DNA of 64,000 nt from the human T2T-CHM13v2.0 reference genome, Homo sapiens (GCF_009914755.1 NC_060930.1); one strand, 5' to 3'. Counted from the first letter of the stretch, positions 1 through 45,246 are shown. Translations and numbers: made by a program. The notes: generated from the sequence alone by a model not told the origin.

Positions 1-359
1 CCTGACAATAGCTCATTTCTTATGATCCATATGGTTATACCACAGTTTGCTTAGTCTTGCATGGCTGAAAGATATCTTGGTTGTTTACAGTTTTTAGTGA
101 ACATATGTAAAGCTGCTATAAATATTCATGTACAGGTTTTTGTGTGGATATCAACCTTGAATTAACTTGGGTAAATACCTAAGAGCACGATTGATGGTAA
201 GTCTCTCCTTAACTTTATAAGAAACTTCTAAACTGTCTTTCAAAGTGGCTTTACCATTTTCCATTCCCATTAGCAGTGAGTGGGAATTCTTGTTGCTCTG
301 TATATTTTCAGCATTTTTTATTGTAAGTTTAAAAAATTTTAGCTACTCTAATAGTGTAG

Positions 360-684
<325 letters not shown>

Positions 685-1141
685 ATTGGCATTTCCCTAA
701 TGACAGATGATCTTAAGCATATTTTCAAGTATTATTTACCACCCATATATCTTCTTTGGTGGTGTCTGTTGAGATCTTTCACCCACTTCTAAAATCAAGA
801 TTTTTTTCCCAATTATTGTGTTTTAATTTTGTTCACATATTATCTTTACGAGTCCTTTGTCACATCTGTAACTTCCAGTTTTTTGACAAGTATTTTCTTC
901 CAGTCTGTGCCTTGTCTTCTTTTCATTCACTTACCAGTGTTTTTGTAAAGCAAAAACTATTAATTATGATAAAGTCTAATTGATTTGTTTTCTCTTTCAT
1001 GGATTGTATTTTTGGTGTTTTATCTAAAAACTCAAACTCAAGGTTAAGATTTTTTCCTTTATATTCTTCCAGAAGTTTTATGGCTGTGCATATTATTTTT
1101 AAGTCTATGATACATTTTGAGTTACTTTTTTATAGGTGTGA

Positions 1142-1422
<281 letters not shown>

Positions 1423-2018
1423 AGATGGATGCCAATTGTTTCAGCATCATTATTGAAAGGAGATTCCCTTCTTCATTGGATGACCTTTGTACTTGTATTC
1501 AAAATCAGGTGACTCTATTTTTGTCCTTCCATTTCTGGCCTCTCCATTCTGTTCTGTTGATCTATGTGTCTGTCCTTTTGCCAATACCACACTCTCTTGA
1601 TCACTGTCCTTTGCAGAAAGACTGGAAATAATATCTAATAATTTTGAAAGGTATGTTTTCATCATCATTCAGTTGAAAATATTATCTAACTTCCCTTATG
1701 TTTTCTTCTTTGATCCGTAGGTTATTTAGAAGGAAGATTTAAAATTTTCAATACTTTTTTGCCCCTAGACAACTTATTATTGATTTCCAATAAAATCTAT
1801 TTTGGTCAGAGAACATATTCTGTATGATTTCAGTCCTTTGAAATATGTTGTTACTTGTTTTATGTCTCAACATATGACCTGTGTTAGTGAATGTACCATA
1901 TTCACTTTACAAAATATATATTCTATATATTCTGGAGTTGTTGAACACAGTGACTGTAAATGTGAGATCAAGATGGTTGATAGTGTGGTTCATTTGTATT
2001 TTTAAAAAACTAAGAAAA

Positions 2019-2314
<296 letters not shown>

Positions 2315-2727
2315 TTAAAAAAAACTAAGAAAAAATAGAGCATCTTTAACTTCCCACCATATATTTGGCATTTCCAGTGTTGGTCACTCCTATCTGAAGA
2401 CTCAGGTTACCATCTGGTATGATTTCTTTCAACCTGGGAAACTCCTTCAGTATTTTTCTTGTAGTAGAGTTATGTTTGCAACAAATTATCCTAGTTTTAT
2501 TTTATCTGGAGACACCTTTTCATTTTTCTTCCCTGAAAATATTTTTACTGGATGTGTAATTCTGAGTTAGGTTGTTTTCTTACAGCACTCAAAAAAATGC
2601 CATTTCATTGTCTTCTGACCACCATAGTTTCTGATGACAAATTATGAACACATGGACTGGTCATTCTCATAATTGTTCTCATGTATGTAACGTGTCATTT
2701 TTCTCTGATTATTCTCACGATTTTCTG

Positions 2728-3142
2728 TGACCATAGGCTGCTCAGGGCTGGACTTGGATATGGCCATAAAGTGGTACTGTAGGAAGTGCAGTATCCTGGA
2801 ATTAATTCCAGACCTTGGAATTAACAGGGCTGGGCCCCTTAGCACCTGCCCTTAGCTCTCCTTTCCCCAGGTCCCTAGAAACCCCCTCCTGATCTACACA
2901 CACACACACACACATGCACACACAACTTCTAACAGGGCCCTTCTCGTTTTTCTCTCCCCCCTGGTTCCTTCCACTCTCCCCTTTCTCTTATGATCCATTT
3001 CGTCTCCCTTCCGCTCTCTGGACCAAGGCCCCAGGCCCGGACTCCAGGGTTGGAGCTCACAGGCTGATTCCTGGGATGAGCAGCCTCCACCTGCAGGAGC
3101 AGCAGCAGGAACAAGGGAGGGGACAGGAGGGCAAGGCCCCAT
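2728..3142 (-). pseudogene. Putative relic of a divergent MHC class I-like gene: leader exon (3142-3061) plus start of alpha1 exon (2795 to ~2728)
   Basis: aaaATGG; signal-peptide-like LALLSPPLFLLLLLQVEAA one frame off the ATG; GTGAG donor at 3060; CAG acceptor at 2796; then HFLQYHFMAISKSSPEQP, which aligns without gaps to class [19 protein letters not shown]; cut off by L1. Confidence 0.5.
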
Positions 3143-4216
3143 TTTGGAGGCTGAGGGACTAGGTCATGTGGTATCAATGGTTTGGGGGTGGATGAGCCCC
3201 AGATATGATCCCACTGTTTTGGCCTGGAGGTGTCTCTTCCCTGAAGCCAAAATCCAGAGTCACTCAGTGGTGGGAGGAAACGTCAGTGTCAACATGGATT
3301 TTGGGAAGCTGGATGGACTCAGAGCCTGACTTGAGATCGGGAACCCCCTTGTATGCAGAGCCCTGTCCAGGTGCTGGGAGCAGGAGAGCCTGGGAGGTCC
3401 TGGCTAGGGAGAAAGGGGAGCGGGGTCTCTGTCCTCGGCCCTGTGGCCACACGGGGGCGTCGCTGCGCTGCTCTCGGATTCTGAGTGCTCTCCTGGACGG
3501 GGCTGCGGGCTGAATGGGCAGACGGGGCTGAACCTGAAGTCATCCACGCTGAGATGGAGGTTCCTCCTGAGCACCTCTGGAATCCACAGGACTCAGGTTA
3601 GATTTGTTTGTCTTGCAACGTGAGGCAATTGTGATGTAGCAAGATCTGGCTCTAGAATTCTTATGGCAAAATAGCTGTCATAGAATCCAACTAGAATGAG
3701 AGTCCAGGGCCTGGGTTGACTGCCCTGGGCACACCTGACTCTTGATGGGGTTGCCAAAATGTAGCTTGGCATTTACAAAAATTCTTTCCAAAGATTGCAT
3801 CAAAGTCCAAAAGAATTATGTACAATTTCATTTCTGATGTCTCTGGCTGTGCTTTCGAAAGGGCAGGAAGAGCCATGGAAAGAGGCTGAAAGGCGCCTCT
3901 GGGAATTCTCAAATCTCTTTTCATAGCAGTAACTTGGACCTAGACAGCAAAGCCTGAAAGACACAGGTAGAAGGATCGCGAGGCGCAGCCCTCCCTTCTG
4001 ATCAGCACAGGTATGGCTGTCTGGGCGCTTTTGCCCCTCTGTGTTCAGCAGGATGGACTCTGCAGTGAGGCGCAGCCCCTGTCTCCCCACTGCCCCAGAT
4101 CAGAAGCATGTTTCCTGATCTTGTTTTCCACACGCTCCTTTTCTTTTTCTGTCTTGTGACCACGAATAGAATAGACAGGCAAGGTCCTGTAAGACCAGGT
4201 AAAAGATGTTACTGAT

Positions 4217-4497
<281 letters not shown>

Positions 4498-4603
4498 TTA
4501 GTGAAATCATGATTGTGAAGGAACAATGGCAAATGGAGAGAAAGAGCAGAGAGACAGACATAGAGATAGATACACACGTACACACACACATAGAGAAAAT
4601 GAA

Positions 4604-4658
4604 CATCCATCCATCCATCCATCCATCCATCCATCCATCTACCCATCCACCCATCCAC
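4604..4658 (+). repeat. (CCAT)n microsatellite
   Basis: catccatccatcc run. Confidence 0.9.
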
Positions 4659-7600
4659 CTTTCTATCTCCTTGCAAGGTAGGTTCATCAACACTTTTACA
4701 TTTATACCCCAGCAAAAATCTTTTTTTGGCTCACACCTGCCCTCCTTCATCCAGCCAACTGACATATTTGCTGAGGTCTTGCCACGTGCCGCACTGGGTG
4801 CTGAGCATTGGAGTCTAAACAGGAACAGACCCCTGGGATGCACTCCCGTGGGGCCCTTCACTGTCCCGTCCCTGGCTGTGAGACATCCTCATCTCCCTGA
4901 GGCTCTTGTTTCTGGTCACTGGGAAAAGTCCCTGGCCCACCTCTCTATTGATACCTGGGAGACTCTATCGCTACTTTGAATAAAGCACTGATTTTCAGCA
5001 TTTATTCTGTATCCACACTTACTAATGCCCTTTCAATTTAGAAGTTGTTACAAACGGGAGGGGTTATAACCTTAGGCACGTTGTTTAAGAGAATTGTAAA
5101 AATAAGGAAACATGATGGCAATGGGCTTTTCTGCTTTCTCCCAGAACACTTCATATTCATTTTCTCACCTGTGTTTGGTTGGTTGCAAGGTGGCTTCCAC
5201 ACCCCCAAGTTTATTTCAAGTAGCAGAAAACACTTGCTTAGAAAACAAGTACTTTGGGAAATGCAGGGTCTCAGCCTCTGTCCTCAGGACTCCACACATC
5301 AGAAAGACATGTGCGTCTCCTGCCACAATCCTGGAGGTGCCCGTGGACTGCAGGTTCGCTCCTCACTGACTTTACTCATGTCCTACTGGAAAAGGATGGA
5401 GCTGCTAGAAATGTCCCAATGGCTTGGAACACTCAATTTCTCTGTGTGCACTGCAAGCAAACTGACAGTTTGACTTTTCAATTCTATTCAACACCTGAAA
5501 ATAAACTGAATTTTCAGTATATTTCCTTCCAGAGAGTAAACTGAAAAGGGAACCTTTCTAAATTCAGTTATGATTTCCTGAAACATCGAAGAAGGCAAAT
5601 GTGGGGGCCCTTAAAGACAAGAGAATTCTCTGACCTCAAATTTCATGTGGCAGCTGTAAGGTGGAGCTGGCAGCATCTGTCCCCACCTCTGGGTACACAG
5701 CAGAATGTGCCAGCTTTAGGGACCCCGGAGGACACAGCCGCACAGTGTCCGGGGGCATCCAGCAAACCCTCAGGAAGGACTCGATCCACGCAGGAGCCTC
5801 CTTAAGCAACTTCTCCCTGAAGAAACCCTGAAGTCTTAGAAATCCATAAAGAAAAAAGATATTCATGTCTCTGATAAAGAAAAGAAATGTCAGCAATCCA
5901 GCACTGAGAAGGGAAGCTACGAGACCACATTTTCTGCATGTGGAGAAGACACGTCTAATGGAGAGGTGGGAACTTGTCTCAAAAGTGTTGGGCCGCAGTG
6001 AGAGGGTGTGGTCGTCACTGCCACCACCCGCTGCTCACTCAGTGACCCCTCCCCATTGTAACTAACGGGCCAGTGAAGAGAAACACTTTTCGTCTGCTTG
6101 TACTGAAATAAGGCTATTACAATAAATCATCTCTGTGGTTGATTTTTCATTTAAGGATGGGATAACTGGAGAAATTGGTGCCTGCAGTGCAGGTTTTAAA
6201 GAAGTTCCTAGAAGCCCTTCTGAGGCCATCTCCAGGAGGCTGCCCCAGCGGGTATGAGGCCTTGCGCTTCTGCCATCCTGTGTGTCCCTGTGATGGAATT
6301 TTGGCCCAGCTAGGGATGGCAAGAGGCCAGGTCATCGCAGGTGGTCTGCAGGCCTGGTGAGGAAGGACAATGACAGACGGGGAGGCAGAAAGGCACACAT
6401 ATGACCAGACCTCCCCCTGGGTCCTGCTCCCATTCCTCTGTCCATCACTCTTGCTCTGTCTGCCCTAGGGGAAATTTCCTGAAGGAAACAGGAAAAGGAA
6501 CCTCTATTCCTGGCTGCATATCTTTTATGTAGGCCTTTCCTGTTATTCAAGCATATCCCCAGCAGATGGCAGAGAAGACATTTCAATTTCGTGCCTCTGC
6601 TTTTCCTCCCCCTCCTCCAACCGGAAAGTCAGGACCAAGGGAATGGATGAAGGCATTAAAGGTATAAATGAGAATGGGTGATAATTTCCCTTTCTCTGAG
6701 CTGGGGAGTCCCATTGCAAGGGTGGGAATAGAAATGTCCAGTGTAACCATTCAGAGATGACAGATACTGCCCTGAAAACAGTCACAAAATCAAACCATGA
6801 TGTGCCTCCCTGGGCTCCTTGGCTCTGGGCTGCTGCTTTCTTTTACTGAGAATCTAAGAGGTGCTGAGCATTCAGTTAAAACGGGACTCAAGGGTTCCTG
6901 CATTGTCCTCTGCCTTAATTGCATTTGAAAATATATTTTGTCAGTTCAATCCTTCTCCTGCCCGTCTCTGTTTCTCTTTTTAAAGAAGCTGAACATTGGC
7001 ACCTTCAAAAGAAAATTGCTAACATGTGAAATAATATATTGTCTAGGATTTAGTTGAAAATAACCTGGTGTTGGGCTATGGTTGAGGATGTAGATAAATC
7101 AAGAGTGGGTGTTACTGAGTGAAGGGTACAGTGAAGGTTACTTTACTCTTCTGTCTACTTTTGTGTTTGCTTAAAATATTTGTACAAGTTTAAAAAAATA
7201 AGAACCAGGGTTACCAGGGGGCATGGCATATGCTGAATAATCATGAGATACCGGTTATGATTTCAAACAAATCTCCAATAAAAATAGATAATTTGAAGTC
7301 AAACCACAGGGACAAAATGTTTTTAGATGTCTCCAAATTCCTCACTTCCCTCCTCTAAATTCAGGTGGGTCACTTCATACTTTCTCCCAACCGCAGGTTC
7401 CCAATAGGCAGGTCCTAGAGCCCAACCTTGGTGGGGCAGGGAGTAGGGATTTAAAAACTGCATGATGATCAACAGCAGGAAAGAGGATTGGGGCTGAGAG
7501 GGGAGGAGAGGCAGGCAGGAGACCCCTGGGGAGTTGCTGCCCCAAGGAACTCCTTCTTCACCCTCTGAGAGAAAGTGTCACAGGACCACAGACCCTTGGT

Positions 7601-17964: not shown

Positions 17965-18272
17965 ATTGTTATCATCATTATTATTGAGACAGGGTCTTGC
18001 TCTGTCACTCAGGCTGCAGTGCTGTGGCAGGAGGACAGCTCACTGCAGCCTCGACCTCCTAGGCTCATGTGATCTTCCCACCTCAGCTGTCTGAGTAGCT
18101 GGGAGTACAGACATGCACCACCATGCCTGGCTAAAATTTTTGTATTTTTGGTAGAGACAAGGGTTTTGCCATGCTGCCTAGGCTGATCTCGAACTCATGA
18201 AATCAAGCTCTCTGCCTGACTCCACCTCCAAAAGTGCTGGGATTACAGGCATGAGCCACCACCACACCCAAC
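17965..18272 (-). mobile_element. Alu (AluJ)
   Basis: gagacagggtcttgctctgtcactcaggctg ... ggattacaggcatgagccacc. Confidence 0.88.
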
Positions 18273-18464
18273 CTAAATTAATTATAAAATATTAAACATG
18301 TCATTTGGTTTTAAGAGGTAAGAGGAATTTCCATGGCTAAATAGGATGTATTTTATTATCATTCACAATTATTGCTTTATTTGAACTTCAATTTCCACCT
18401 GTGTCCCAATTAAACTCAAAAGAAAGACCCAAGCCTTGCTAGGCTGATTCTATCATCCCCCCCA

Positions 18465-19345
18465 TGATAGACGTGTAACCTTGGTCATTCACCTGACCCC
18501 AGTTATTCAACCAACAATAATGTAAGTCCTGCCTTGAAGGGATTTTTGCATATATAATTAAGGTCCTAAATCAATTGACTTTAAGACAGGGATTATCCCT
18601 GGTCGGGCTGTCCTCATCTGGCGAGCCCCTGAAAGGACTGGGTTCTTCCTGATCAGAGAGATTCACAGTGTGAGAGGGATTCAGTGTGAGGGGGTTCCTC
18701 CAATGTGGATTCTAAAAATGAAGGGGCTGTGTGGCAAAGAATGCTGGTGGGCACCAGGAATTGAGAGCAGCCTCTCTCTACCTTGACAGTAGGCAAGGAA
18801 CAGGAACCTTAGTCCTACAACTGGCAGAAACTGAATTATGTCGCCTCTGTATAAGCCTGAAGGAGGCCCTCAAAATGAAAACACAGTTTTGGGAAACCCT
18901 AAACAGAGAACCCTCCAATCATGCTCAGATTTCTGACTAAGGAACTGTAAATAAATAAATAAGTGTTGTTTGGTCAAGCGTGGTAGCTCATGCCTGTAAT
19001 CCTGAGGTTTGTGGGAATGACACAGGAGGATTACTTGCAGCCAGGAGTGAGACTAGCCTGGGCAATTTGAGGAGACCTTCCTCTCTACAAAAAGGAATTT
19101 TTTTTTTTTTTAATTTACCTGAGCACGGTGGTACTTGCCTGTAGTCCCAGGTACTCCAGACACTGAGGCAGGGGGACCTCTAGAGGCCAGGAGTTTGAGG
19201 TTGCAGGGAACCATGATCATGCAACTGCACTTCACCGTGGATAACAGAGGGAGACCATGTCTCTAAAAATAAATAAATAAATACAATAAATGGGTGTTGT
19301 TTAAAGCCAGTGTTTGTGGTAATTTGTTATGCAGTCATACAAAAG
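18465..19345 (+). mobile_element. MLT1 LTR interrupted by AluJ (18972-19289)
   Basis: gggatttttgca...attatccctgg...caaggaacaggaaccttagtcctacaac; resumes after the Alu with ttgtggtaatttgttatgcag. Confidence 0.7.
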
Positions 19346-20363
19346 TCATACACAGACTCAACAGACACATGGAATGAATTTATAAATTGATAAGCACACT
19401 ACATGAGTAAAATAAAATATTTCCTTTTTCCAGTATTTTTCATTTTATAATATTCCATGATGCGATTAAATTTTTATACAATCATATTTCATTCAACTAG
19501 TCAACAAAAATTAATTTAGTGCCTATGCTGAACCAGGTATGCCCTCATATGCTCAAGTGCCTGACATTCTAGAAGCTTCACAAGACCGAAGTGGAGCCAC
19601 TGGAGTGTTTTAGGTGAAGAAACGACACACTTTGACTCACAGTAGCAGGACCACTGTGGAGAGAACACTCAGGTGGCAGGTAATGGAACAGTGCTAGAGC
19701 CACTATTCAGGAGTGACAGAGTGGTGGGGACTAAGGGAAGAGGAGGGCCTGAGGGATGAGAGGGACGGAGGGAAGGGCTGGAGAAGCAGGAGGTGAGGAG
19801 AAGGAGCAGAGGGACAGAATTTGAAAGCAGCAGAATTCTTAGCTTTAAACACATTGTTTTATAAATTTTTAATACATCCATCTACAGAGCCTAGCAGGGT
19901 GTTCCTTGCATTTGGCCTTTAACACCTTATGTGGGACTGCCTAAAAATTAATTGCTTTTTCTGCTTTTTTTCAGGTTTAAAAAAATACTAAGTGTTCCAA
20001 TAAAACATGCACACCACTTAGATGCGGATACTTCCTAAAAACAGGAAGTGCATGAGCACTGGTGAGGGGCATTGTGACTGCGTTGAACACTTGCAACTTT
20101 GAGGTGAATGAATGTATTGGCTCCTGGTTGCAATATACAATCACACGTTGTGCTACTTTGTATTGTCAGGAGATGTCCTGGACTCCCACAGAAACTCAGG
20201 GCTATGGAATGAAGGTAATTTTAGAATACAACAAGAGTCACAGATACATAGTCTGGGAAAGCAAAACTTAGGAGCTCTGAGAGTTGTACAACTGTAATGC
20301 ATTTAGACACATTTATATATCAAGGGGCCAAAGTAACAGTTTTTACACATAAGATTCCTGATT

Positions 20364-20682
<319 letters not shown>

Positions 20683-20784
20683 TTACCAAGATTCTACTAC
20701 TCACTGCAGCTAATAAAAAAAAAAAAAAAAGAAAGAAAGAAACTGGTCTCTGTCCTATTTCATATGCTCAGGTACAACTTTTCC

Positions 20785-21002
20785 AGAGAAGAAGAGGAGG
20801 GGGGCGGGGAGGAGCAGGAGGAGGAGGAAAGAAGGAGGAGAAGGAGAAGGAGAAGGAGAAGGAGAGGAAGAGGAAGAGGAAGAAGAAGAAGAAGAAGAAG
20901 AAGAAGAAGAAGAAGAAGAAGAAGAAGAAGAAGAAGAAGAAGAAGAAGAAGAAGAAGAAGAAGAAGAAGAAGAAGAAGAAGAAGAAAAGGAAGAAGAAGA
21001 AA
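20785..21002 (+). repeat. Polypurine tract containing a pure (GAA)36
   Basis: GGA, GGAGAA and GGAAGA units, then uninterrupted GAA at 20879-20986. Confidence 0.95.
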
Positions 21003-21349
21003 CTGTCTCTACACCTTCATTCTCAGGACAAGTTCATTGTCTGGCACCAAGCTCCTTGGGGTGAATTTTCTTCCAAAAGAGTCCGGGGAGTCCAGGTATG
21101 GAATGGGAGGCAGAAAGTTCAATCAAGGGACTGGGATTTCGGAATGAATAATGAAGGGAGATGGACTGGGTCCATGCCGAAGGTTTCTCCCTGGTTTCTC
21201 AGCCCCCGGGCGAAGACTCAGGGAGACATTGAGACACACCCTGCACAGGAGGGGGAGGGGGAGGGGGAGGGCAAAGTCCCAGGGCCCCAGGAGTGGCTCT
21301 CAAGGGCTCAGGCCCCGAGGCGGTGTCTGGGGTTGGGAGGCTCAGTATT

Positions 21350-21505
21350 GAGAATTCCCCATCTCCCCAGAGTTTCTCTTTCTCTCCCAACCCGTGTCAG
21401 GTCCTTCTTCCTGGATACTCATAACGCGGCCCCATTTCTCACTCCCATTGGGCGTCGCGTTTCTAGAGAAGCCAATCAGTGTCGCCGCAGTTCCCAGGTT
21501 CTAAA
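21350..21505 (+). promoter_or_regulatory. HLA-F: HLA-F proximal promoter: enhancer A-like kB site, ISRE, SXY module, CCAAT, TATA variant
   Basis: GAGAATTCCCC 21350-60; AGTTTCTCTTTCT 21371-83; X1 ccttcttcctggatactc; X2 position TAACGC 21422-27; Y box ATTGG 21447-51; CCAAT 21472-76; TCTAAA 21500-05. Confidence 0.85.
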
Positions 21506-21558
21506 GTCCCACGCACCCCGCGGGACTCATATTTTTCCCAGACGCGGAGGTTGGGGTC

Positions 21559-24503
<2,945 letters not shown>

Positions 24504-24706
24504 GACAGCTTCCTTGTGTGGGACTGAGAAGCAAGATATCAATGTAGCAGAATTGCACTTGTGCCTCACGAACATACATAAATTTTAAAAATAAAGAATA
24601 AAAATATATCTTTTTATAGATACAGGTAGATATGTTTTTATAGCATGCACGTAAATGTGTGTGTGTGTGTGTGTGAAGAGAAAGAGTGAATAGAGAGATT
24701 AAGATT

Positions 24707-25247
24707 CTTTTAATGGTGAAAAGATATACATATATTTGGAATTAGCCAGCTTGACTCAGTTTAGGTGATCCCAATTTTGGTGGCAACAACCAAAGCATCG
24801 TAGTCAGGAGCCAGTCGAACATATGCCTTCCTCTCTCCATCAGACTGAATCAGAGTGTTGACTTTGGCCACATCAATGTCACAAACTTCTTCACAGCCTG
24901 TTTGATCTGGTGCTTGTTGGCTTTAACATCCACAGTGAACACAAGTAGGCTGTTGTTTTCTATCTTCTTCACAGCCTACTCAGTGGTCAGCGGAAACTTG
25001 ATGATAACATGGTGGTCAAGCTTATTTCTCCTGGGGGTGCTCTTCCAAGGATATTTGGGCTGCCTCCGGAGTCACAGTGTCTTGGGCCGCCGGAAGGTGG
25101 GTGACATGTGGATCTTGTTTTTTTTGTGGCTGTGGACATCTTTCAACACTGCCTTCTTGGCCTTGCAAAGCCTTCGCTTTGGCTTCGGCTTTAGGAGGGG
25201 CAGGAGCTTCCTTCTTCGTTCTTGGCACCATCTTATGAAAAGGGTCC
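24707..25247 (-). pseudogene. RPL23AP1: Processed pseudogene of ribosomal protein L23a
   Basis: ATG 25231 [22 protein letters not shown] through KIGIT* (stop 24761-63); +1 and -1 frameshifts, internal stops; 5' pyrimidine (TOP-like) leader; TSD AGATTAAGATT at 24696-24706 and 25248-25258. Confidence 0.95.
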
Positions 25248-25267
25248 AGATTAAGATTTTTGACTGA
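24975..25267 (+). CDS. HLA-F: Alternative terminal coding exon of HLA-F (long isoform, 442 aa), antisense to RPL23AP1
   Basis: Acceptor tcttcttcacag at 24974; phase 1 matches exon 6; reads [14 protein letters not shown]...KRVQIKIFD*; 1036+293=1329 nt; AATAAA at 25367. Confidence 0.8.
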
Positions 25268-26079
25268 GTCATTCTAAAGTAAGTTGCAAGACCCATGATA
25301 CTAGACCACTAAATACTTCATCACACACCTCCTAAGAATAAGAACCAACATTATCACACCAAAGAAAATAAATAATTCCATAATATTATTTAAAGTCCTT
25401 TTATGTTCAAATATCTCCACTTCTTTCAGTACATTTTTGTACCTATTTTTTATAGCTTGTTTTCTTAAAATGTCCACTCGTTGCCTTTGGTTATATTTCT
25501 TTAATTACCTACAATCTATAACAATCAACCCATCTTTTTTCTTTTAGAATGGCATTACCTGTTTCAGAGATGAGGCCAAATACCTGTGGAATCTTCTCCA
25601 CACTGAATTTATCATATTATTTCCCCTGATGCCTTTAACTTTTTTCCTCTAACTGCTATGCCTCCTAAGGACCTATGTAGCTCTGGGTTAAACATTTGGC
25701 AGCAATGTTTACAGGAGGAGCTGTGACCGCACATTCATCACATCAGGAGGCACACAAAGCCTAGGGTTACCAGGACTCTTTCTGACCCCATACAGCCAAA
25801 TTTATCCTGACTTCCCCGAGATGCAGAACCATGGGCTGGGTGTTTAGTGGGTATGAGTGTGATATTCTGGCAATAGGAGGTTCTGCCACTCTCCCCATTC
25901 CTCACGAGCTTTAGTTCCCCATACCCTGAGGTTCTGAGCTCCAGACCTTCAACCATCAGGCCAGGCCCCTCCAGACCTAGACTCCCTTCCTGTCTTCTCC
26001 AGCCCCACTCTGCTTGTATCTACTTCCGGATCACTTTCCCTCTACAGGCCCAGCTCCTGAGTGTCTCTACCTCTCAAAC

Positions 26080-26300
26080 AAGTATTCTCATCCAGGAGCA
26101 ATTTTCCCACCAGAGGACATTAGCTATGTCTGGAAAAATGTTTTGTTGCCATGACTGGAGTGAGGAGGAGGTGCTACCAGCATCTTGTGGGGAATGACCA
26201 GGGATGCTGAACATCCTGCAGTGCACAAGTCAGCCCAATCACCCACATAACAGATAATTATCCAGCCCCAATACCAAGATTGCCAAGGGTAAGGAGGCCT
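26080..26300 (+). mobile_element. MER20 (hAT) DNA transposon
   Basis: gaggacatt...atgtctgga...gtgctaccagcatct...cagggatgctg...catcctgcagtgcacaag...taattatccagcccca. Confidence 0.7.
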
Positions 26301-27499
26301 GCCAGGACTTTCTCTCCCTTGAGTACAAGCTTCCTTGAACTGAGGGACACCCTGAAGGAAAAGTGTGGTCCCACCCCAGTCATCTCTCCCTTCCCTGGAG
26401 CTCCATCTGTATGCCTGTAGTGCTTAGGCCTGTAACCTGGGGTCCAGGAACCCACCTTCCCATGAGACTGCATGCAGAAGTGATGATATGTGCACACATG
26501 ACTTCATTACAGGGCATTGGATATTGATATTCATCAGGTCAGCTGGGGCCCAAGACACTACTCTTCTGCCAACAGGCCGCAATCCTCTGCATTAGAGAGA
26601 GGGTAAAGATTGAGGGAGGCCCTAACTTCAAACCTTCTATCACTGCTAGTGAAGTGCCAAAAAGAAGTGCAAGGTCATCTGCCCTTGTAGGAACCACACA
26701 GGAAGGCAGAGTGTCCACCAATGTCAAATTCCATCAAAGAAATAATATTTTGACAAAAAATGCAAGTCACCTTTCTAAGTCCCAGACAGCAGCTCAAAAT
26801 AAAAAGCATTAAACCCCTCAAATCTTAGACCAGGTGAAATTATTGAAGCTGCAGTAAGGTCTTGTGGGACCTGCAGTTAGAGAGAAGGGACAACTCAATT
26901 TGGGACTGCAGCAGAAACCCCTACATCATGGGGTTCCTGGAAGGGACCCTCTCCCTTCAGCGACGCATTACGAGGCCATTTCTAGGTAAAAAGGTAGAAT
27001 TTCCTTGGATTCCTGAGGTTTATTTTACACTTACTGCTTATTCTTTGACTTTATAGAAGCCAACTTCAGTTTGAACATCTTGCAATTAATTTTTTTTGGC
27101 TCTAAGTGGAGAATTTGAACTTGTTTCTGAAGAAAACCAGGGGCTCCTTATGTGAGCAAGCAACCTTCCCTGTGGCCCCCTTATGCAATAAACATAAGCC
27201 ATTGTGAGCCAGCAAAATTTAAAGCAAGGAAAGCAGTAAACCCTCCATTTCAGCATGTTTCAGCCTGTCTAGTGATGTTCTAGTCTTGCCTCACTCTTAA
27301 CATTTTAAAATTTATAATTTTATTTGATTTTGATTTAATAAGAATTCATATGTATTCATTTCTTTTGGGTTTGTCACCAAAAGCCTCCTCCAATCACCTG
27401 TGGAGTAAAGACAAGTAAATAAATGCATGGTGTTCCCATTTATCAGTGCTCACTGCATCTTACAAGTGTATCAGCCCCACTTCAGCTGATAGTACCAGG

Positions 27500-28665
27500 A
27501 AACCTTAATACCCACATACAAAATAATGATGTTGGACAAAATTCATAGCATCACCTTACACCATATTCAAAAATTAACTCAATTAACTCAGAATGGTTCA
27601 AGGAACTCAACTTAGGAGTTCAACCTATAAATCTTTTAGAAGAAAACATTGAAGAAAATCTTAGGAACATTGGATGTGGCAATGGCTTCTTGGCTGGTGA
27701 GCAAAAGCACAACCAATAAAAGAAAAACAATAAATTAGACTATCAAAATTTAAAAACCTTTTTTATATATCAAGGGACACTATTAACAGAGTTAAAAGAA
27801 AATGCACAGAATGGGAGGAAATATTTGCCAGTTATATACCTGATAAAGAATTAATATCCAGAATACATAAAGAACTATGACTTAACAACAGAAAAACAAA
27901 CAATCTCATTCAAAAATGAGTGAACAACATGAATAGACAATTCTCCAAAGAAGATATACAAATGGGCAATAGGCACATGAAAATATGCTGAACTTCACTA
28001 GTCCAAGTGTTGGCGAAGATGTGGAGAAGTCACAACACTTGTACACTGCTGGTGAGAGTGTACAGTGGTATAGCGACCATGAAAAACAGTATGATGCTTC
28101 CTCAAGAAAGTAAAAACACAATTTCCATAGGAGCCAACAATTCCACTTTTGGGCATATACCCAAAAGAATTGAAAGCAGGAACTCACACAGATAATTGTA
28201 CACTCATGCTCGTAGCAGCACTATTCCCAATGGCCAAAAGGTGGAAGCAACCGAGTGTCCATCGGAGGATGATTAGATAAACGACCCATGGTGCACATAG
28301 CATGGAATATTATTCAGCCTTAAAAGTGAATGAAATTCAGGTTGGATGAACCTTGAGAACACTATAAGTGAAATGAGCCAGAAACAAAAAGACAAATATA
28401 ATATTTCACTTATGTGATGCAGCTAAAATAGGCAAATTCATAGAAACAGAGAGTAAAATAGAATTTACCAGAAATTGAGGGTAGGGAGAATGGGCAGCTT
28501 TGGTTTAATGGGTCCAGTTTCTGTTGGGATGATGAAAATGTTCTGGAAATGCATATTGGTGGTGGTTACACAACATTGTAAATGTGCTTTAGGCCACCGA
28601 ATTGTACACTGAAAAAGTGGTTAGAAGGTAAATTACATGGTATGTATGTTTTACCACAATATTAA
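27500..28665 (+). mobile_element. L1 (L1MB-like) ORF2 end and 3' UTR
   Basis: aaaattaactc...gaaaatatttgc...gaagatatacaaatgg...catggaatattattcagccttaaa...ttttaccacaat. Confidence 0.8.
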
Positions 28666-28681
28666 CAAGTATATCAACACT

Positions 28682-29270
28682 AAATCCAATCACTTTTCAC
28701 TCCTCTCCTGCCACCACCCGAGAGCCACCCTCTCAAGAATTGTAAACCAGAAGGGCTTTCCAGCTGGGCTGCCTGCTGCCTCTCATGCCCACTGTCCATT
28801 ACTCACACAAAGGCAGAGTGAGCCTCTCAAACGAAAATTAGGACATATCCTATGAACACCTCAGCCCTTTTCTTTCCTAGGCACAATGAAACCTCAGTCT
28901 CTCACCGTTTCCTACAAGCCCCTCATCATAGGACCCCTGTGGCCTCATCCCGCCATTCTCAGCCCAGCTCACTCGTCTCCACTCACACCAGCCTTTTGTC
29001 ACTGCTCCATCCTGTCTCTGCTACCTGCCCCTGCTGTGACTCCCACATGCACCTGCTCCCCGGGGGTCCACATGGCTCACTCCTCACACCATTCGAGTCT
29101 CTGTTCAAATGTCCCATGGTCAAGTTCTCAGAAACGTCATGCCCAGTTACCTTTTCTGAAATCTATTCCCTGCCATTCCCGCCACTCCCACCAATCTTCT
29201 AGCCTAGGTGTATTTTTTATCAGTGGCAATTATCACTGATACTGTGACAGATTCTATTTGTTTATTGTCT
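28682..29270. mobile_element. L2 fragment (paralogous to 55411-55760)
   Basis: aatccaatcacttttcactcc...ctcaaacgaaaattagga...ctctgttcaaatgtc. Confidence 0.6.
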
Positions 29271-29275
29271 GTTGG

Positions 29276-29318
29276 TGTATCAGGGTTACCAAGACAGAAA
29301 GACCCAATAGAGTAGATG

Positions 29319-29364
<46 letters not shown>

Positions 29365-29838
29365 CAAGAGGGGATTTATTAGTGGAAATGGCTCACATAG
29401 TTATGGAGGCTGATAAGATCCATGAGAGGCCACCTGCAAGCTGGAGAACCAAGGAAGACAGTAGCCTGGCTCAGTCCAAGGCCAAAGGCCTGAGGGGCCA
29501 GAGGAGGAGGTGGGAGGATAAAGGGTTGACTGGTGCAACACTCAAGAGTCCAAAGACCATACAACCTGGAGTTCTGATGTCCAAGGGCAGGAAAAGTGTC
29601 CCAGATTGAGAGAGAGAGAGAGAGAAAATTTGACTCCTTTCTGCTTTTTTGTTCTATCTGGGCCCCTAGGTGATTGGATTGTGGCTGCCCACAGCGAGAG
29701 AGGATTTTCCCCGCTCAGTCACTCACATGCCAATCCCTTCCAGAAACACCCTCGCAGGCACACCCAGAAATAATGTTATACCAGCTATCTAGGCATCCCT
29801 TAACCCAGTCAATATGACACCTAAAATTAACCATTACA
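29276..29838 (-). mobile_element. MLT2 LTR with (GATA)n at 29318-29364
   Basis: tgtatcagggtt...ggctcacatagttatggaggctg...cccagaaataatgtt...aaaattaaccattaca. Confidence 0.8.
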
Positions 29839-30049
29839 GTCAGTATCACTGAAATGTATGTTCTTTGATAAAGGGATCTGGTCTGTTTCCTTACCATTGT
29901 TTCTCACCATCATAATCAGTAAATAGCTCTCAGTAAGTATTTGTTAAATGAATAAATATGTCAGTACAATCACAGTATGACAGTATAATAAGGCTTTAAA
30001 ATGTTTAAAGCAGTCTCTGGTTTAATATTTATCACTTGAGTAGTCTATG

Positions 30050-30351
30050 AATTTATTTATTTTTGGAGACAAATTCTCACTCTGTAGCCCGGTCTGGAGG
30101 GCAGTGGCATGATCACAGCTCACTTCAGCCTCAACCTTCCAGGCTCGAACAATCTTCCCACCTCAAACACTGGGGTACCTAGGACTACAGGCTCATGCCA
30201 CCATGCCCAGCTAATTTTTTTTTGTATTTTTTGTAGAGACAGGATTTTGCCATGTTGCCCAGGCTGGTCTTGAACTTCTGGGCTCAGACAATCCACCCTC
30301 CTTGGCCTTCCAATGTGTTGAGATTACAGGCTTGAGGCACCGCACCTGGCC
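30050..30351 (-). mobile_element. Alu (AluJ)
   Basis: Antisense Alu body ending caccgcacctggcc. Confidence 0.85.
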
Positions 30352-30492
30352 TGAGTAGTCTATGAATTTTTAAAATCCCAACCACAGGAGAATCTTTATG
30401 TACAAACATGCTTGTCAAAATATTACCTACAAAAAGATAAGATGAAAGCAGATGGATCTAAAAGAACTCAGTTACATCACCTCCTTATATGA

Positions 30493-30840
<348 letters not shown>

Positions 30841-30987
30841 TAAACTTTATACAGAGTTTACAACATGGAAAACTACTTGTATAATAATACATTCAAAAAG
30901 CAACATTCAAGATAACCCATGACATATGAATGCAACCTTGTACAATAAAGATACCTATAAAAATATATACATAGAGAACAACAAAAT

Positions 30988-31300
30988 GGGCCAGGCGCCT
31001 TGGCTCATTCCTGTAATCCCAGCACTTTGAGAAGCTGAGGCAGGTGGATCACTTGAGGTCGGGAGTTCGAGACCAGACTGGCCAATATGGCAAAACCCTG
31101 TCTCTACTAAAAATACAAAAAATTTGCTGGGCCTGGTGGCGCATGCGTGTAATCTCAGCTACTCAGGAGGCTGAGGCATGGAAATCACTTGAACCCGAGA
31201 GGCGGAGGTTGCAGTGAGCTGAGGTCGCACCACTGCACTCCAGCCTCAGTGACAAAGTGAAATTGTGTTTCAGAAACAAAAACGAAAACAAAAACAAACC
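30988..31300 (+). mobile_element. Alu (AluS)
   Basis: ggccaggcgccttggctcattcctgtaatcccagc...cactccagcc plus A-rich tail. Confidence 0.9.
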
Positions 31301-31561
31301 ACCACCAACAAAATGGAAATCAGCACCACGCAAAGGACAGCTCCAGGGACCAACAGTCACACTGAGTCCAGGAAGGTTCAACAATACAATAGCAGTGATA
31401 TTTTTGAGGGGAGACCTAGGTGGTATTTCTTCTGTGTATTTTATTTTTTTTAATTCAAGTAGGCATTGATCTGTGTATTTTAAAGTCTTCTGTGATCAAA
31501 TAGATTTTCACATTTCTAATATTCAAAATAAAGCATTTGAAGTAAAATAACAATGAAAAGT

Positions 31562-31716
31562 GGCTGAGTGCACACCTGTAGTCCCAGCTACTCAGGAGGC
31601 TGAGATGGGAGAATCACTTGAGCCCAGGATTTTGAGGCTGTCGTGTGCTATTATCACACCTGTGAATAGTCACTTCTCTCCAGCTTGGACAACATAGCAA
31701 GACCCCATCTAAAATA
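31562..31716 (+). mobile_element. Alu monomer (FRAM/FLAM-like)
   Basis: cacctgtagtcccagctactcaggaggctgag...gaccccatctaaaa. Confidence 0.7.
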
Positions 31717-32699
31717 ATAGTAATACAAAGAAGTTCAGATCTCCTTCCAACCTCAGCCTAAAGCAAATTTCTCATTTGAAATCCATAGGGCAGAAATGCC
31801 GATTATGGCACCTCCAGAGAGTAGAAAAATATTCTTCCTCCACTCCATGACTCATCCTTTGGTTACAGCGTTTAGCTGAGCAATGAAGTCAATGCTAAGA
31901 ATACCATCAATTTATAAAATACTGATTATCTCATTTATAGACATAAAAATACTATAATTATATATATATTTATGTAAAATTACCATCACACCTAAGACAG
32001 CGAGATGGATTTTTCCCTTCCACAGATGAAAATATGAGTCCCTGAGAACATAAAATCTTCATTTGAGCTCACTGAAAATGTTGGCCTTGAGAATTAGGAG
32101 ACACTCAGTCTCCTGCAGGCCCCCTGGGCATGAGCCACACCAGTGGAGGCCACACAACAGCAGGAAGAGCAACTGAGAACCCTGGAAGGTTCACACTTGT
32201 AGAGGGTGCACATCCAGTGAAATGCAGTTGATGGATGGGCCAAGGTAATAATCCAGCTCCTTCCTTCAGCTGGGGGAGGCAGATGGGTGAGTCAGCTACG
32301 CATGAGGTGTATGGTGTTCCTAGAGCTATTGTTAGTTCCTCTGCTGTGAACTCCACCCCGGGCATAAAAAAATTATATACTCACTGGTAAGCAGGATCCT
32401 TTTTAGGAAAGCAAATGACTTTCCTAACATAAGGTCAAACATTTCCCTCCAAATGAATCATCCTAGTTGGATAATCTCTTCACTCCCACTGAAATTGCCC
32501 CAGAGTTGCACCTGAGCATTTGGATCCAAGACAGAAAGTCATTTTGGGGGTTGGGTCTGGCTGATCTGGGAGTGTTGTGAAGAAAGGCTTTCTACTTACA
32601 GAAGAACAAGGGTGAGCTCTGAGTAGGAGATGACATCCTGAGGGGGAAAGACAGATGGGCAGATGCTCAAGCAAACTCAGGAGTTTACCATATAAAAGA

Positions 32700-33262
32700 T
32701 TTTGGAATCTATTCTTCAGCCTCTTTTTTACTGTGATACAATATACATGAACACAAAATTTACCACTGTACCCATTGTACAATAGGTGTACAATGCAGTG
32801 ACAATTAGTAGGTTCGCAATGTTATGTAGCCATCATCACTCTCTAGTTCCAGAGTATTTCATCACCTCAGGGGAAACTCTGCACCATTAAGCAGTCACCC
32901 TCCATTTCCTCCTGCCACCAGACCCTGTCACCACAAGTCTGCTTTCTTTCTCTATAGATTGGTCTCTTCTGAAGATTTCACAAAAATGGGTTCATGAAAT
33001 ATGTATCCTTTTGTAGCTGATTTCCTTCACTTATCATGTTTTTGAGATTCAGCAATGTTGTAGCATGTATCAGTATTTCATTCCTTTTATGGCTAAATCA
33101 TATTCCATTGTAGAAATACACTACATGTTGTTTATTCATTCATTAGTCAATGGGCATTTTCTTTTAAACCAAATAGGAAAAACAAAGGAAGAATTAAACA
33201 CCAAAAATATACATGTTACTACTAGCTTTTATAGGACTACTATATATAGTACTATATATATA

Positions 33263-33294
<32 letters not shown>

Positions 33295-34150
33295 AACACC
33301 AAAAATATACATATTACTACTAGCTTTTATAGTATGACTACTATATATAGTACTATATATATAATTTCATAGTAGTACTATATATAGTTATATATATGTA
33401 GTACTATGTATAGTCATATATATGTATATATATGTATATATATGTATATATATGTGTGTATATATATATATTTATATATATATAAAATCCATTATTTCTG
33501 AAGGAGAGTTTTTCCAGACACACAATTCCTGCATGACAGTCTTTTTTTTTCTGACCTCTAAATTTGTCAACATTCCAATGCCTTCTGAACTCTATGGTTT
33601 CTGAAGAAAACTGGGCTGCAATCTTATTGAGGATCCATTGAACCTGAAAAGTTCCTTCTCTGTTATTCATTTCAATATGCTCTGTTTGTCATTGGCTTTT
33701 GACAGGTTGATTATAATGTTCTCTTGGTGTGGACCTCTTTAAATTTAATTTTTTTTGCTGCTTAAAATTTGTCAAGTTTGTTGGATGAATAATGTTTTTC
33801 ATCAAATTTGGAAGGTTTGGAGTTATTCTTTAAATAGTCATTCTTCTCCTTTCTCTCTCTCCTTTCTTTGAGGACTCCCAAAGTGCATGTGCTTGATGTT
33901 GTCTCACAGATCTTTAAAGTTCTGTTTATTTTTCTTCATAATTTTTTTTCTTTCTGCTACTGAACTAGAGAATTTCAATTGTCTTATCTTCAAGCTTGCT
34001 GATTCTCCATTCTGCATGGTGAAATTTGCTCTGGAGCCCCTCTAGTGAATTTTTCATTTCAGTTATTGCACTTTTCAGCTCCAAACTTTTTATCTGGTCT
34101 CTTTGTAAAATTTCTACCTTTTTATTGATGTTCTCTATTTGGGGAAACCT
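32700..34150 (-). mobile_element. Old L1 fragments flanking a (TA)/(CA)-rich block (33195-33485)
   Basis: Antisense L1 3'-end phrases; ORF1-like KSLELKSAITEMKNSLEGLQSKF...RISKLED in ORF 33965-34282. Confidence 0.7.
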
Positions 34151-45074: not shown

Positions 45075-45120
<46 letters not shown>

Positions 45121-45245
45121 TATCAAGTTTGGCAAACAGGTTGCGAAACTGGAACCTTTGTGTAATGCATTTGGAAATACAAAATAGGGCACCTGTTATG
45201 GAAAACAGTGTGTTGATTCCTCCAAAAATTAAAAAATGAATTACC
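44495..45245 (+). mobile_element. L1 ORF2 fragment with (CA)n at 45078-45116, in MICE intron 1
   Basis: ttcaacaaatggtgctagg...aaaattaact...gaaaatatttgcaaatcat...gggaaatgcaaatcaaaaccacaatga. Confidence 0.82.
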
Positions 45246-45246
45246 A

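What the first reader, a model, noticed from the sequence alone, without database searches (positions are those of the whole stretch)
2728..3142. Apparently unannotated relic of a divergent MHC class I-like gene at the edge of the alpha block
Seen on the minus strand: aaaATGG at 3142, an 82-nt exon ending at a GTGAG donor, with a signal-peptide-like stretch (LALLSPPLFLLLLLQVEAAHPRNQP) one base out of frame; a 265-nt intron; ttccag; then ILHFLQYHFMAISKSSPEQPMVTE. This aligns without gaps to the class I alpha1 start (H-x-L-x-Y-x-x-x-A-[IV]-S-[KR]-x5-P; 6/18 identities to HLA-F) but is far more diverged than an HLA or MIC duplicate. It ends abruptly at an old L1. Inference: the remnant of an ancient non-classical class I lineage that may still be intact in non-primate mammals in the ZFP57-proximal region. 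The match is short, so chance cannot be excluded.
Basis: partly seen in the sequence, partly recalled or inferred. Interest (0 to 1): 0.8.

Follow-up and report, generated by a model that had tools for sequence, protein, structure and literature searches.

The report
Relic of a lost class I lineage

Summary
Against HLA-F, Pfam MHC_I and the PDB, the 24-residue peptide alone is at noise level. The decisive evidence comes from relatives.

- Window 2725-6477 (minus strand) is one of only three paralogous copies in the human genome. The other two lie in the kappa block (upstream of MICC) and the beta block (between MICA and MICB).
- The beta copy has no L1 there. Its frame continues into a recognisable alpha1 domain (33 of 34 PDB hits are class I or class I-like, best E 6e-4, in exact register).
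- A library search found predicted class I proteins in Tupaia chinensis (whole), Chrysochloris asiatica (lacks a signal peptide) and Choloepus didactylus (alpha2 onward). Between them they match both the relic's leader and its alpha1.
- The window fragment is 12/21 identical to the Tupaia alpha1 start and 15/21 to its leader.
- In trees the relics and these proteins form a clade (99/94 and 98/98) apart from HLA, MIC, HFE, MR1, AZGP1 and FCGRT.

Two alpha3 relics of the same lineage lie elsewhere in the beta block. I found no description in print.

The parts
3143..6477 (-). 5' flank shared with the kappa and beta copies. It holds an Alu at about 4217-4500. The RefSeq 'silencer' 3983-4097 lies inside it.
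   Evidence: Colinear blastn: window 2811-6477 against C6:30258412-30261964, and window 2983-6159 against C6:31295152-31298385, at 75-81% identity. K2P distances are 0.17-0.23 and star-like. The silencer comes from the hub's table.
3061..3142 (-). Leader (signal peptide) exon relic. The ATG is at 3142 and GTGAG follows at 3060. The hydrophobic core is one base out of frame with the ATG.
   Evidence: The ORF holding this frame is the best of 2675 window ORFs against the Tupaia leader (Smith-Waterman 73, next best 42). Identity is 15/21. The same ATG and frame offset are present in all three human copies.
2816..3060 (-). Intron 1 relic with a (TG)n microsatellite at 2896-2924. It ends at the AG (2815-2814) that aligns within 1 nt with the paralogs' acceptor.
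   Evidence: Alignment A1; Tandem Repeats Finder.
2789..2810 (-). Net 20-nt insertion (approximate bounds) found only in the window copy.
   Evidence: Alignment A1. There are 25 nt between the AG and CAC in the window, against 5 nt in the beta copy.
2725..2813 (-). Start of the alpha1 exon. The homologous frame reads HFLQYHFMAISKSSPEQPMVT (2788-2726), about 22 codons, and is then cut off.
   Evidence: Ungapped DNA homology to the kappa and beta copies up to GGTCACAG at 2725. Identity to Tupaia P0007 residues 31-51 is 12/21, E 1e-5. It ranks third of 2675 ORFs, behind only HLA-F and MICE alpha1. It falls inside the lineage clade, support 99/94.
1..2724 (-). Old dispersed LINE (L1 by my recall of ORF1/ORF2 sequence), sense on the minus strand, carrying Alu insertions. 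It runs past the window start and replaces the rest of the gene.
   Evidence: 39 other genomic places at 67-93% identity. GC falls from 0.61 to 0.32-0.44. The rest of alpha1 is absent from 18 kb beyond the window start and from the whole genome. The L1 family name was not confirmed: Pfam and the PDB gave nothing.

Best explanation
Window 2725-3142 (minus strand), together with its 3.3-kb 5' flank, is a dead, truncated copy of the 5' end (leader exon, intron 1, first 22 codons of alpha1) of a distinct class I-like gene lineage. The lineage is predicted as a whole gene in Tupaia chinensis and as partial models in Chrysochloris asiatica and Choloepus didactylus. In human it survives only as fragments.

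Shown:
- There are three paralogous 5' fragments, at the alpha-block edge (this one), the kappa block and the beta block.
- There are two 3' fragments (alpha3 plus a small following exon) at the two ends of the beta block.
- All of them group with the non-human proteins and away from HLA and MIC.

Inferred:
- The gene was already broken before the 5' fragment was copied. All three copies share the one-base offset between the ATG and the signal-peptide frame. The kappa and beta copies, the only two that reach that far, also share a truncation in intron 2.
- The 5' fragment was then spread with the block duplications, roughly 45-100 million years ago.
- In the window copy, a LINE insertion or an associated rearrangement later removed everything after codon 22.
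- The window copy encodes no protein.
- Judging from its relatives, the intact ancestor was a non-classical, probably secreted class I-like molecule. Six of the eight peptide-terminus-binding residues of classical class I are changed, and no transmembrane segment is visible.
For: Copy number and colinearity:
- Genome searches find the 5' block at only three places, all in the MHC.
- Alignment is colinear through the leader, intron, (TG)n and alpha1 start, up to the LINE junction.

Class I nature of the paralogs:
- The beta-copy ORF (72 aa) gives 34 PDB hits at E<=10. Of these, 33 are class I, MIC or ULBP. The best is 6.3e-4, aligned residues 2-45 to 2-45.
- Pfam MHC_I is its only hit, at E 0.12.
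- ESM Atlas: the best three of the 30 hits returned are MHC_I clusters, scoring 0.92-0.93.

Orthologous lineage:
- phmmer over 1.84 billion representatives gave 6 hits at E<=0.001. Four belong to this lineage: P0001, P0002, P0004, P0006.
- Sources name the hits as Tupaia chinensis (P0004, P0007), Chrysochloris asiatica (P0006) and Choloepus didactylus (P0008).
- P0006, P0007, P0004 and P0008 pass the Pfam MHC_I and C1-set cut-offs. P0002 passes MHC_I.
- The kappa and beta relics are 49-54% identical to them over 61-75 aa (E 1e-10 to 1e-15). The same proteins match MICE at 35-42% and HLA-F at 33-42%.

The window itself:
- 12/21 identical to the Tupaia alpha1 start, E 1e-5, and 15/21 to its leader.
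- Each piece is the top-scoring ORF outside HLA-F and MICE among 2675 window ORFs.

Trees:
- The alpha1 clade has support 99/97 without the window row and 99/94 with it.
- The alpha3 clade, including the two human 3' relics, has support 98/98.
Against: - The window peptide alone gives no Pfam MHC_I hit and no PDB hit at E<=10. tblastn with HLA-F or with the lineage proteins does not report it. Its assignment rests on 21-23 residues plus DNA paralogy.
- The 23-residue window row fills only 26% of the tree columns.
- The beta copy's Pfam score (12.3 bits) is below the cut-off of 28.3.
- The non-human 'intact' genes are automated predictions. P0004 and P0007 differ in alpha2, P0006 has an odd N- and C-terminus, and P0008 lacks alpha1.
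- Only three named species were found.
- No alpha2 of the lineage was found in human.
- The trees contain no classical class I genes from Tupaia, Chrysochloris or Choloepus for contrast.
- The order of events (gene death before copying) is inferred only from shared frame offsets. Gene conversion could mimic this.
Confidence: 0.9

Rival explanations
1. Chance resemblance: an arbitrary ATG, GT and AG, plus a short peptide that happens to look like the start of alpha1.
For: The peptide gives nothing against Pfam or the PDB. The HLA-F alignment scores about 16-17 bits by my own hand scoring, which no call computed. That is the same as many random hits in 6 kb. The frames do not mesh.
Against: The leader and alpha1 pieces each rank first among ORFs outside HLA-F and MICE against the Tupaia protein. 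They lie in the right order on one strand. DNA paralogy to two copies whose frame continues into a full alpha1 is unambiguous.
Confidence: 0.01
2. It is a diverged partial duplicate of a known human family (MIC or HLA), not a separate lineage.
For: Within the human genome, the next-best match of the beta-copy ORF is MICE alpha1 (43% over 47 aa, E 0.115). MICA alpha1 matches it better (36%, E 4.7e-4) than HLA-F does (29.5%, E 0.11). The copies lie in the same duplicated blocks as MIC and HLA genes.
Against: The relics are 49-54% identical to the Tupaia and Chrysochloris proteins. The same proteins match MICE and HLA-F at 33-42%. They form a clade (99/97) separate from the MIC and HLA clades. 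The relic 5' region has no DNA similarity to the MICA, MICB or HLA-F 5' regions beyond Alu (shuffle z of 1.1 or less). The full-length relatives are closer to classical class I than to MIC.
Confidence: 0.05
3. The protein-coding gene is dead, but the segment (or its beta-block paralog) has been kept as a non-coding element: a promoter or first exon of a lncRNA, or a regulatory element. This reading adds to the pseudogene reading rather than excluding it.
For: - Divergence between copies is lower in the part holding the promoter, exon 1 and alpha1 (K2P 0.17-0.19) than further upstream (0.23).
- A RefSeq 'silencer' (3983-4097) lies in the shared flank (hub table).
- P0001, a 67-aa predicted protein, is 95% identical to 43 residues of the beta-copy ORF and then continues differently. 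This suggests the exon is spliced into a transcript in some species.
- By recalled coordinates, the beta copy lies near the start of LINC01149. The order MICA, LINC01149, HCP5 appears in passages of PMC6562477 and PMC9616569.
Against: RefSeq annotates no transcript over window 2725-3142 (hub table). The difference in divergence is small and was not tested against CpG content. The LINC01149 overlap rests on recalled coordinates and an offset I estimated. The source species of P0001 is unknown.
Confidence: 0.12
4. The segment is part of an interspersed repeat consensus.
For: It abuts a LINE and Alus.
Against: Window 2735-3145 has only two other genomic matches, both in the MHC. All 18 remaining matches cover only the (TG)n tract. 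By contrast, 2345-2724 has 39 dispersed copies.
Confidence: 0.01

Closest known systems
Predicted class I proteins of Tupaia chinensis (P0007, P0004), Chrysochloris asiatica (P0006) and Choloepus didactylus (P0008), which their sources auto-name as H-2 or HLA class I 'alpha chain(-like)'
   Same: The leader motif PPLFLLLLL..AAHP..QP and the alpha1 start H.L.Y...A(I/V)S..SPGQP.VT match the relic. The alpha3 matches the two human 3' relics. They share a clade with the relics.
   Different: They are open reading frames with alpha2 and alpha3, and P0007 and P0006 also have alpha1. The window copy keeps only the leader and 22 codons and has shifted frames. Their genomic position is unknown to me.
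HLA class I gene fragments and pseudogenes of the alpha block (HLA-V, -P and others) and HLA-X
   Same: They are truncated class I remnants left by block duplication in the same region. HLA-X and HCP5 are described in passages of PMC6562477. MHC-V is discussed as an ancient remnant in passages of PMC12674619.
   Different: Those are close relatives of the HLA genes. This relic is only about 30-40% identical to HLA alpha1 and belongs to another clade. HLA-X lies next to HCP5 (GRCh38 31,461,846-31,462,490, PMC6562477). By my offset estimate that is about 20 kb from the beta copy.
MIC genes and pseudogenes (MICA, MICB, MICC, MICD, MICE)
   Same: They are divergent class I-like genes carried in the same duplicated blocks. 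MICE alpha1 is the best other human match of the beta-copy ORF.
   Different: They form a separate clade. The 5' regions share no DNA homology. Intron 1 is about 250-330 nt in the relic, against about 6.9 kb in MICA (ATG at 31259519, alpha1 at 31266431).
AZGP1 (zinc-alpha2-glycoprotein), a soluble class I-like protein
   Same: This is a functional analogy only. The lineage proteins show no transmembrane segment after alpha3 (by eye), as in soluble ZAG (recalled).
   Different: There is no specific sequence relationship; AZGP1 sits elsewhere in both trees. Secretion of the lineage proteins is inferred, not shown.

Membership tests
MHC class I superfamily (Pfam PF00129 MHC_I, alpha1-alpha2) | Profile match of the alpha1 sequence | tested here: inconclusive
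   The window ORF gives no hit at E<=10. The beta paralog ORF has MHC_I as its only hit, at E 0.12 and 12.3 bits, below the cut-off of 28.3. The lineage proteins P0006, P0007, P0004, P0008 and P0002 pass at 38.7-92.6 bits. A 22-codon fragment cannot reach the cut-off.
MHC class I superfamily | Gene layout: leader exon, phase-1 intron, alpha1 exon starting at G-x-H-x-L | tested here: met
   In the beta copy, the ATG frame (82 nt, phase 1), the GTGAG donor and the AG|GG CCC CAC acceptor join in frame. In the window copy the layout is recognisable, but a 20-nt insertion breaks the phase. PDB alignments start at mature residue 2.
MHC class I superfamily | Membrane-proximal Ig C1-set alpha3 domain | tested here: not met
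   There is no alpha2 or alpha3 of this gene in the window or in 18 kb beyond its start. None was found in the 37-kb kappa and beta flanks. Separate alpha3 relics of the lineage exist at C6:31369056 and C6:31070058. As a gene, the window copy is only a fragment.
Tupaia/Chrysochloris/Choloepus class I-like lineage (unnamed) | Groups with these proteins to the exclusion of HLA, MIC, HFE, MR1, AZGP1 and FCGRT | tested here: met
   The alpha1 tree gives 99/97 without the window row and 99/94 with it. The alpha3 tree gives 98/98 for the 3' relics. Identity is 49-57%, against 30-43% to HLA and MIC.
Tupaia/Chrysochloris/Choloepus class I-like lineage (unnamed) | Orthologous genomic position (synteny) | not testable with these tools
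   No mammalian genome other than the window's own is held. Only contig lengths are given for the proteins.
MIC family | Clusters with MICA, MICB and MICE; long intron 1; shared 5' region | tested here: not met
   It forms a separate clade. There is no 5' DNA homology. Intron 1 is short.
Classical (peptide-presenting) class I | The eight conserved residues that bind peptide termini (Y7, Y59, Y84, T143, K146, W147, Y159, Y171; list and numbering recalled) | tested here: not met
   On the HMMER alignment of P0007 to an HLA chain, Y7 is kept. Y59 becomes F, T143 R, K146 Q, W147 L, Y159 W and Y171 L. Y84 is probably kept, by eye. The cysteines at 101 and 164 align as conserved; those at 203 and 259 look kept by eye. 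This applies to the intact relatives. The window fragment reaches only Y7, which it keeps.

The most novel reading that the evidence does not exclude
The human MHC carries at least five fragments of a class I-like lineage that I could not find described. Three are 5' ends, at the alpha-block edge, in the kappa block and in the beta block. Two are alpha3-bearing 3' ends, at the two ends of the beta block.

The lineage would be MHC-linked, as old as the eutherian radiation, and probably secreted. It appears as predicted genes in Scandentia (whole) and, in part, in Afrotheria and Xenarthra, and it died on the primate stem.

Because the 5' and 3' halves flank MIC-containing segments (5' at 31.298 Mb, MICB, then 3' at 31.369 Mb), the gene may have been split by the very rearrangements that built the MIC/HLA duplicons. 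If so, its pieces would be datable markers of how the alpha, kappa and beta blocks arose. It would also be a rare case of cross-order orthology for an MHC-linked class I gene.
Probability: 0.45. Interest if true: 0.7.

Novelty: new member of a known kind. Interest (0 to 1): 0.6.

Why it matters
- Apart from a few conserved class I-like genes outside the MHC, class I genes are generally held to show orthology only between closely related taxa (passages of PMC6636196). An MHC-linked lineage shared by tree shrew, golden mole and sloth, and present as relics in human, would be an exception.
- It would give a new marker for the history of the alpha, kappa and beta blocks.
- It would add unannotated class I pseudogene fragments to a medically much-studied region. 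One of them probably lies at or near the 5' end of the lncRNA LINC01149, between MICA and HCP5.
- It would point to a possibly secreted class I-like protein, of unknown function, that could be studied in species that still have it.
- For the window itself, the element is a dead fragment with no expected protein function.

Tried and rejected
- Pfam on the four window ORFs around the finding gave no MHC_I hit at E<=10. The only hit was a spurious DDE_Tnp_1_2 match at E 0.095.
- phmmer of the 25-aa window peptide against the PDB gave 0 hits at E<=10.
- tblastn with HLA-F against window 1-6000 gave only noise. The alpha1-start alignment was not in the part of the output I could see, which was cut at the 20,000-character limit.
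- tblastn with P0007, P0006, P0008 and P0002 against window -18000..64000 at E<=1 did not report the relic. I read this as a seeding failure on a 21-residue match. BLASTP and Smith-Waterman do find it.
- The 5.8-billion-protein word search with the beta ORF, lengths 'longer', scored none of 171 candidates at E<=10.
- A search for alpha2 and alpha3 downstream of the kappa and beta copies, and telomeric of the window, found nothing.
- A search for the missing remainder of the window copy elsewhere in the genome found only the beta and kappa copies.
- DNA homology of the relic 5' region to the MICA, MICB and MICC 5' regions: only Alu matched.
- By eye, the relic's upstream region seemed to carry class I X2 and Y boxes. 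Local alignment to the HLA-F and MICA 5' regions is no better than shuffles (z 0.7-1.1), so I dropped this.
- Confirming the LINE as L1 failed. Pfam on 5 ORFs gave no L1 domain, and the PDB gave 0 hits. The L1 name therefore rests on my recall of ORF1/ORF2 sequence.
- AlphaFold2 of P0007 with a 5-sequence alignment gave mean pLDDT 38.5. The model is unusable, and I ran no fold search on it.
- The sheep MHC paper PMC4613773 (passages only) uses 'class I-like' for ordinary predicted class I genes and is not relevant.

Full report
**Observation.**
- The ATG is at 3142-3140, and 82 nt follow up to GTGAG at 3060.
- A further 265 nt lead to 'ttccag' (AG at 2797-2796).
- The frame then reads ILHFLQYHFMAISKSSPEQPMVTE.
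- The hydrophobic, signal-like stretch is one base out of frame with the ATG.

The three frames cannot be spliced into one reading frame as they stand.

- Pfam finds no MHC_I match in any of four ORFs at E<=10.
- phmmer of the peptide against all PDB chains finds nothing at E<=10.
- tblastn with the window's own HLA-F protein gives only noise-level hits in window 1-6000.
- By my hand scoring, the 6/18 alignment to HLA-F is worth about 16-17 bits. That equals many random hits.

**Paralogs.** The window's genome is searchable.
- Window 2735-3145 has only two other real matches, both in the MHC: C6:30261589-30261964 and C6:31298221-31298651. The other 18 matches cover only the (TG)n tract.
- With longer queries, and after fetching the regions, the homology is colinear. 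Window 2811-6477 matches the first locus and window 2983-6159 the second, at 75-81% identity.
- By the PF00129 map of the chromosome, the first copy lies about 17 kb upstream of the MICC remnant, in the kappa block.
- The second lies between MICA (31266431) and MICB (31358721), in the beta block.
- A multiple alignment (A1) shows homology through the leader, the intron, a shared (TG)n tract and the start of the alpha1-like exon, up to GGTCACAG at window 2725.
- From 2724 the window is a dispersed repeat: 39 other places among the 40 scored, some matching from the first base.
- The 'ttccag' acceptor lies in a net 20-nt insertion found only in the window copy. The AG that corresponds to the paralogs' acceptor is at 2815-2814.

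**The paralogs show what the exon was.** In the beta copy, which has no LINE at that point, the same frame runs open for 72 codons (L011:3158-3373).
- phmmer against the PDB gives 34 hits at E<=10. Of these, 33 are class I, MIC or ULBP chains. The best is E 6.3e-4, aligned residue 2-45 to 2-45 of the mature chain.
- Pfam's only hit is MHC_I, at E 0.12, below the cut-off.
- The best three of the 30 ESM Atlas hits returned are MHC_I clusters, scoring 0.92-0.93.
- In the beta copy the ATG frame, the GTGAG donor and the acceptor AG|GG CCC CAC join in phase 1, as in class I genes.
- Within the human genome, the next-best match of this ORF is MICE alpha1 (43%, E 0.115).
- MICA alpha1 (36%, E 4.7e-4) matches it better than HLA-F (29.5%, E 0.11).

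**Intact relatives.** phmmer of the beta ORF over 1.84 billion representative proteins gave 6 hits at E<=0.001.
- Two (P0003, P0005) are repetitive proteins with no class I features by eye. I did not follow them.
- P0001 (67 aa) is 95% identical to part of the ORF.
- P0002 (112 aa), P0004 (329 aa) and P0006 (393 aa) are 48-53% identical.
- Word searches with P0006 and P0007 returned only four proteins, at E<=1e-10 and at E<=1e-15.
- P0006, P0007, P0004 and P0008 pass the Pfam MHC_I and C1-set cut-offs. P0002 passes MHC_I.
- P0007's best PDB matches are classical class I chains (H-2Dd, E 2.2e-53).
- P0007 begins MGLCTRACPPLFLLLLLGEAAAHPMTQPWSHSLRYDLTAISQPSPGQPEVTALGYLDG. It therefore matches both the relic's signal-like frame and its alpha1 frame.

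**Direct tests on the window.**
- BLASTP of the window ORF 2642-2851 against P0007 gives 12/21 identities at P0007 residues 31-51, E 1e-5.
- The ORF holding the signal-like frame gives 15/21 identities at residues 8-28. Its E is 0.37 after composition adjustment.
- As a control, I scored all 2675 stop-to-stop ORFs of 15 aa or more in the window by Smith-Waterman.
  - Against the alpha1 of P0007, P0006 and P0002, the relic ORF is third (55-56), behind only HLA-F and MICE alpha1. The next best scores 38-46.
  - Against the P0007 leader, the relic ORF is first (73, next 42).
- tblastn of the lineage proteins gives 49-54% identity over 61-75 aa (E 1e-10 to 1e-15) on the kappa and beta copies. The same proteins match MICE and HLA-F at 33-42%.

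**Trees (IQ-TREE, support given as ultrafast bootstrap / SH-aLRT).**
- For alpha1, the group {P0007, P0006, P0002, beta relic, kappa relic} has 99/97.
- Adding the 23-residue window fragment gives 99/94. That row fills only 26% of the columns.
- HLA-A/B/C/E/F/G, MICA/B/E with a ULBP, and HFE, MR1, AZGP1 and FCGRT all lie outside this group.
- No classical genes of the three non-human species were available for contrast.

**More fragments.** Scanning the human genome with P0007, followed by tblastn, found two alpha3 exons of this lineage. Each has a small following exon (..SLP.EEPA..).
- They lie at C6:31369056-31369615, about 6 kb beyond MICB, and at C6:31070058-31070628.
- They are 58-67% identical to the lineage alpha3, against 39-51% to HLA-F.
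- They are 80% identical to each other over about 1.4 kb, and there is no third copy.
- In the alpha3 tree they join P0006, P0007 and P0008 at 98/98.
- No alpha2 of the lineage was found in human.

**Decay and history (inference).**
- All three 5' copies share the same ATG and the same one-base offset to the hydrophobic core.
- Compared with P0007, keeping the T|GG junction codon also implies a one-base loss at the end of the exon, again shared by all three.
- The kappa and beta copies are cut in intron 2 by a shared antisense LINE and continue colinearly without alpha2.
- I therefore read the 5' fragment as already dead and truncated when it was copied.
- K2P distances among the three copies are equal within each segment: 0.17-0.19 near the exon and 0.23 upstream. 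This is a star-like pattern.
- At 1-2.2e-9 substitutions per site per year (recalled rates), that is roughly 45-100 million years.
- The window copy was later cut at codon 22 by a sense-strand LINE. The sequence after that LINE is unrelated to the paralogs, and the missing part is nowhere in the genome.
- On a larger scale, window 25248-29351 (the HLA-F 3' flank) is also paralogous to C6:31275647-31278450. The relic therefore belongs to a large duplicated unit that includes the class I gene position.

**What the intact protein may be (inference).**
- On the alignment, P0007 keeps Y7 and the cysteines at 101 and 164.
- The alpha3 cysteines look kept by eye.
- It changes six of the eight residues that hold peptide termini in classical class I. 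The residue list and numbering are recalled.
- No transmembrane stretch follows alpha3 in P0007, P0008 or P0002 (by eye).
- This fits a non-classical, possibly secreted molecule.
- The structure prediction failed (pLDDT 38.5).

**Literature.** I found no description of this lineage or of these relics. What I saw of each paper:
- PMC6562477 (passages): places HLA-X next to HCP5, so the beta copy is not HLA-X.
- PMC6636196 (abstract and passages): reports paralogy between orders, apart from one pseudogene pair.
- PMC12674619 (passages): no mention of LINC01149, ZFP57 or tree shrew.
- PMC9616569 and PMC4613773 (passages): not relevant to the lineage.

Subscription journals and supplementary files were not seen, and GENCODE annotation could not be checked. 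The RefSeq table supplied with the finding has no feature at 2725-3142.

**Limits.**
- Synteny and intactness in other mammals rest on automated protein predictions from three named species.
- The L1 family name and the link to LINC01149 are recalled, not tested.

Noticed in passing
G000:C6:31369056-31369615 (+) and G000:C6:31070058-31070628 (+) (L029, L031): Two alpha3-plus-small-exon relics of the same lineage, at the two ends of the beta block. They are 80% identical to each other over about 1.4 kb, and I saw no annotation for them. Together with the beta 5' relic, they bracket the HCP5-MICB segment.
   Followed up: yes
G000:C6:31043396-31045601 (-) (L020): Another divergent class I-like pseudogene with alpha1 and alpha2 (PF00129 40.7 and 25.8 bits). 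Its alpha1 start, THSLCYDFITLSQPSPGQ, is 51% identical to P0007 over 33 aa. It sits alone in the alpha1 tree, and I do not recognise it as a named locus.
   Followed up: partly
G000:C6:31173913-31174086 (-): An isolated class I alpha2 fragment (PF00129 positions 121-178, 44.1 bits) between HLA-C and HLA-B.
   Followed up: no
G000:C6:30260689-30260785 (+) (L010:1685-1785): The kappa copy carries an extra local duplicate of the alpha1 start, about 1.25 kb upstream of the real one.
   Followed up: partly
window 25248-29351: The HLA-F 3' flank is paralogous (75-77%) to C6:31275647-31278450, downstream of MICA. It lies at a similar distance from the relic copies in both blocks, which indicates one large ancestral duplicon.
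   Followed up: partly
window 3983-4097: The RefSeq 'silencer' lies inside the 5' flank shared by the three relic copies, about 840-955 nt upstream of the relic ATG.
   Followed up: no
P0001 (library protein, 67 aa): A predicted protein that is 95% identical to residues 27-69 of the beta-copy ORF and then continues with unrelated sequence. This hints that the alpha1 relic exon is spliced into a transcript in some species. The species is unknown.
   Followed up: no
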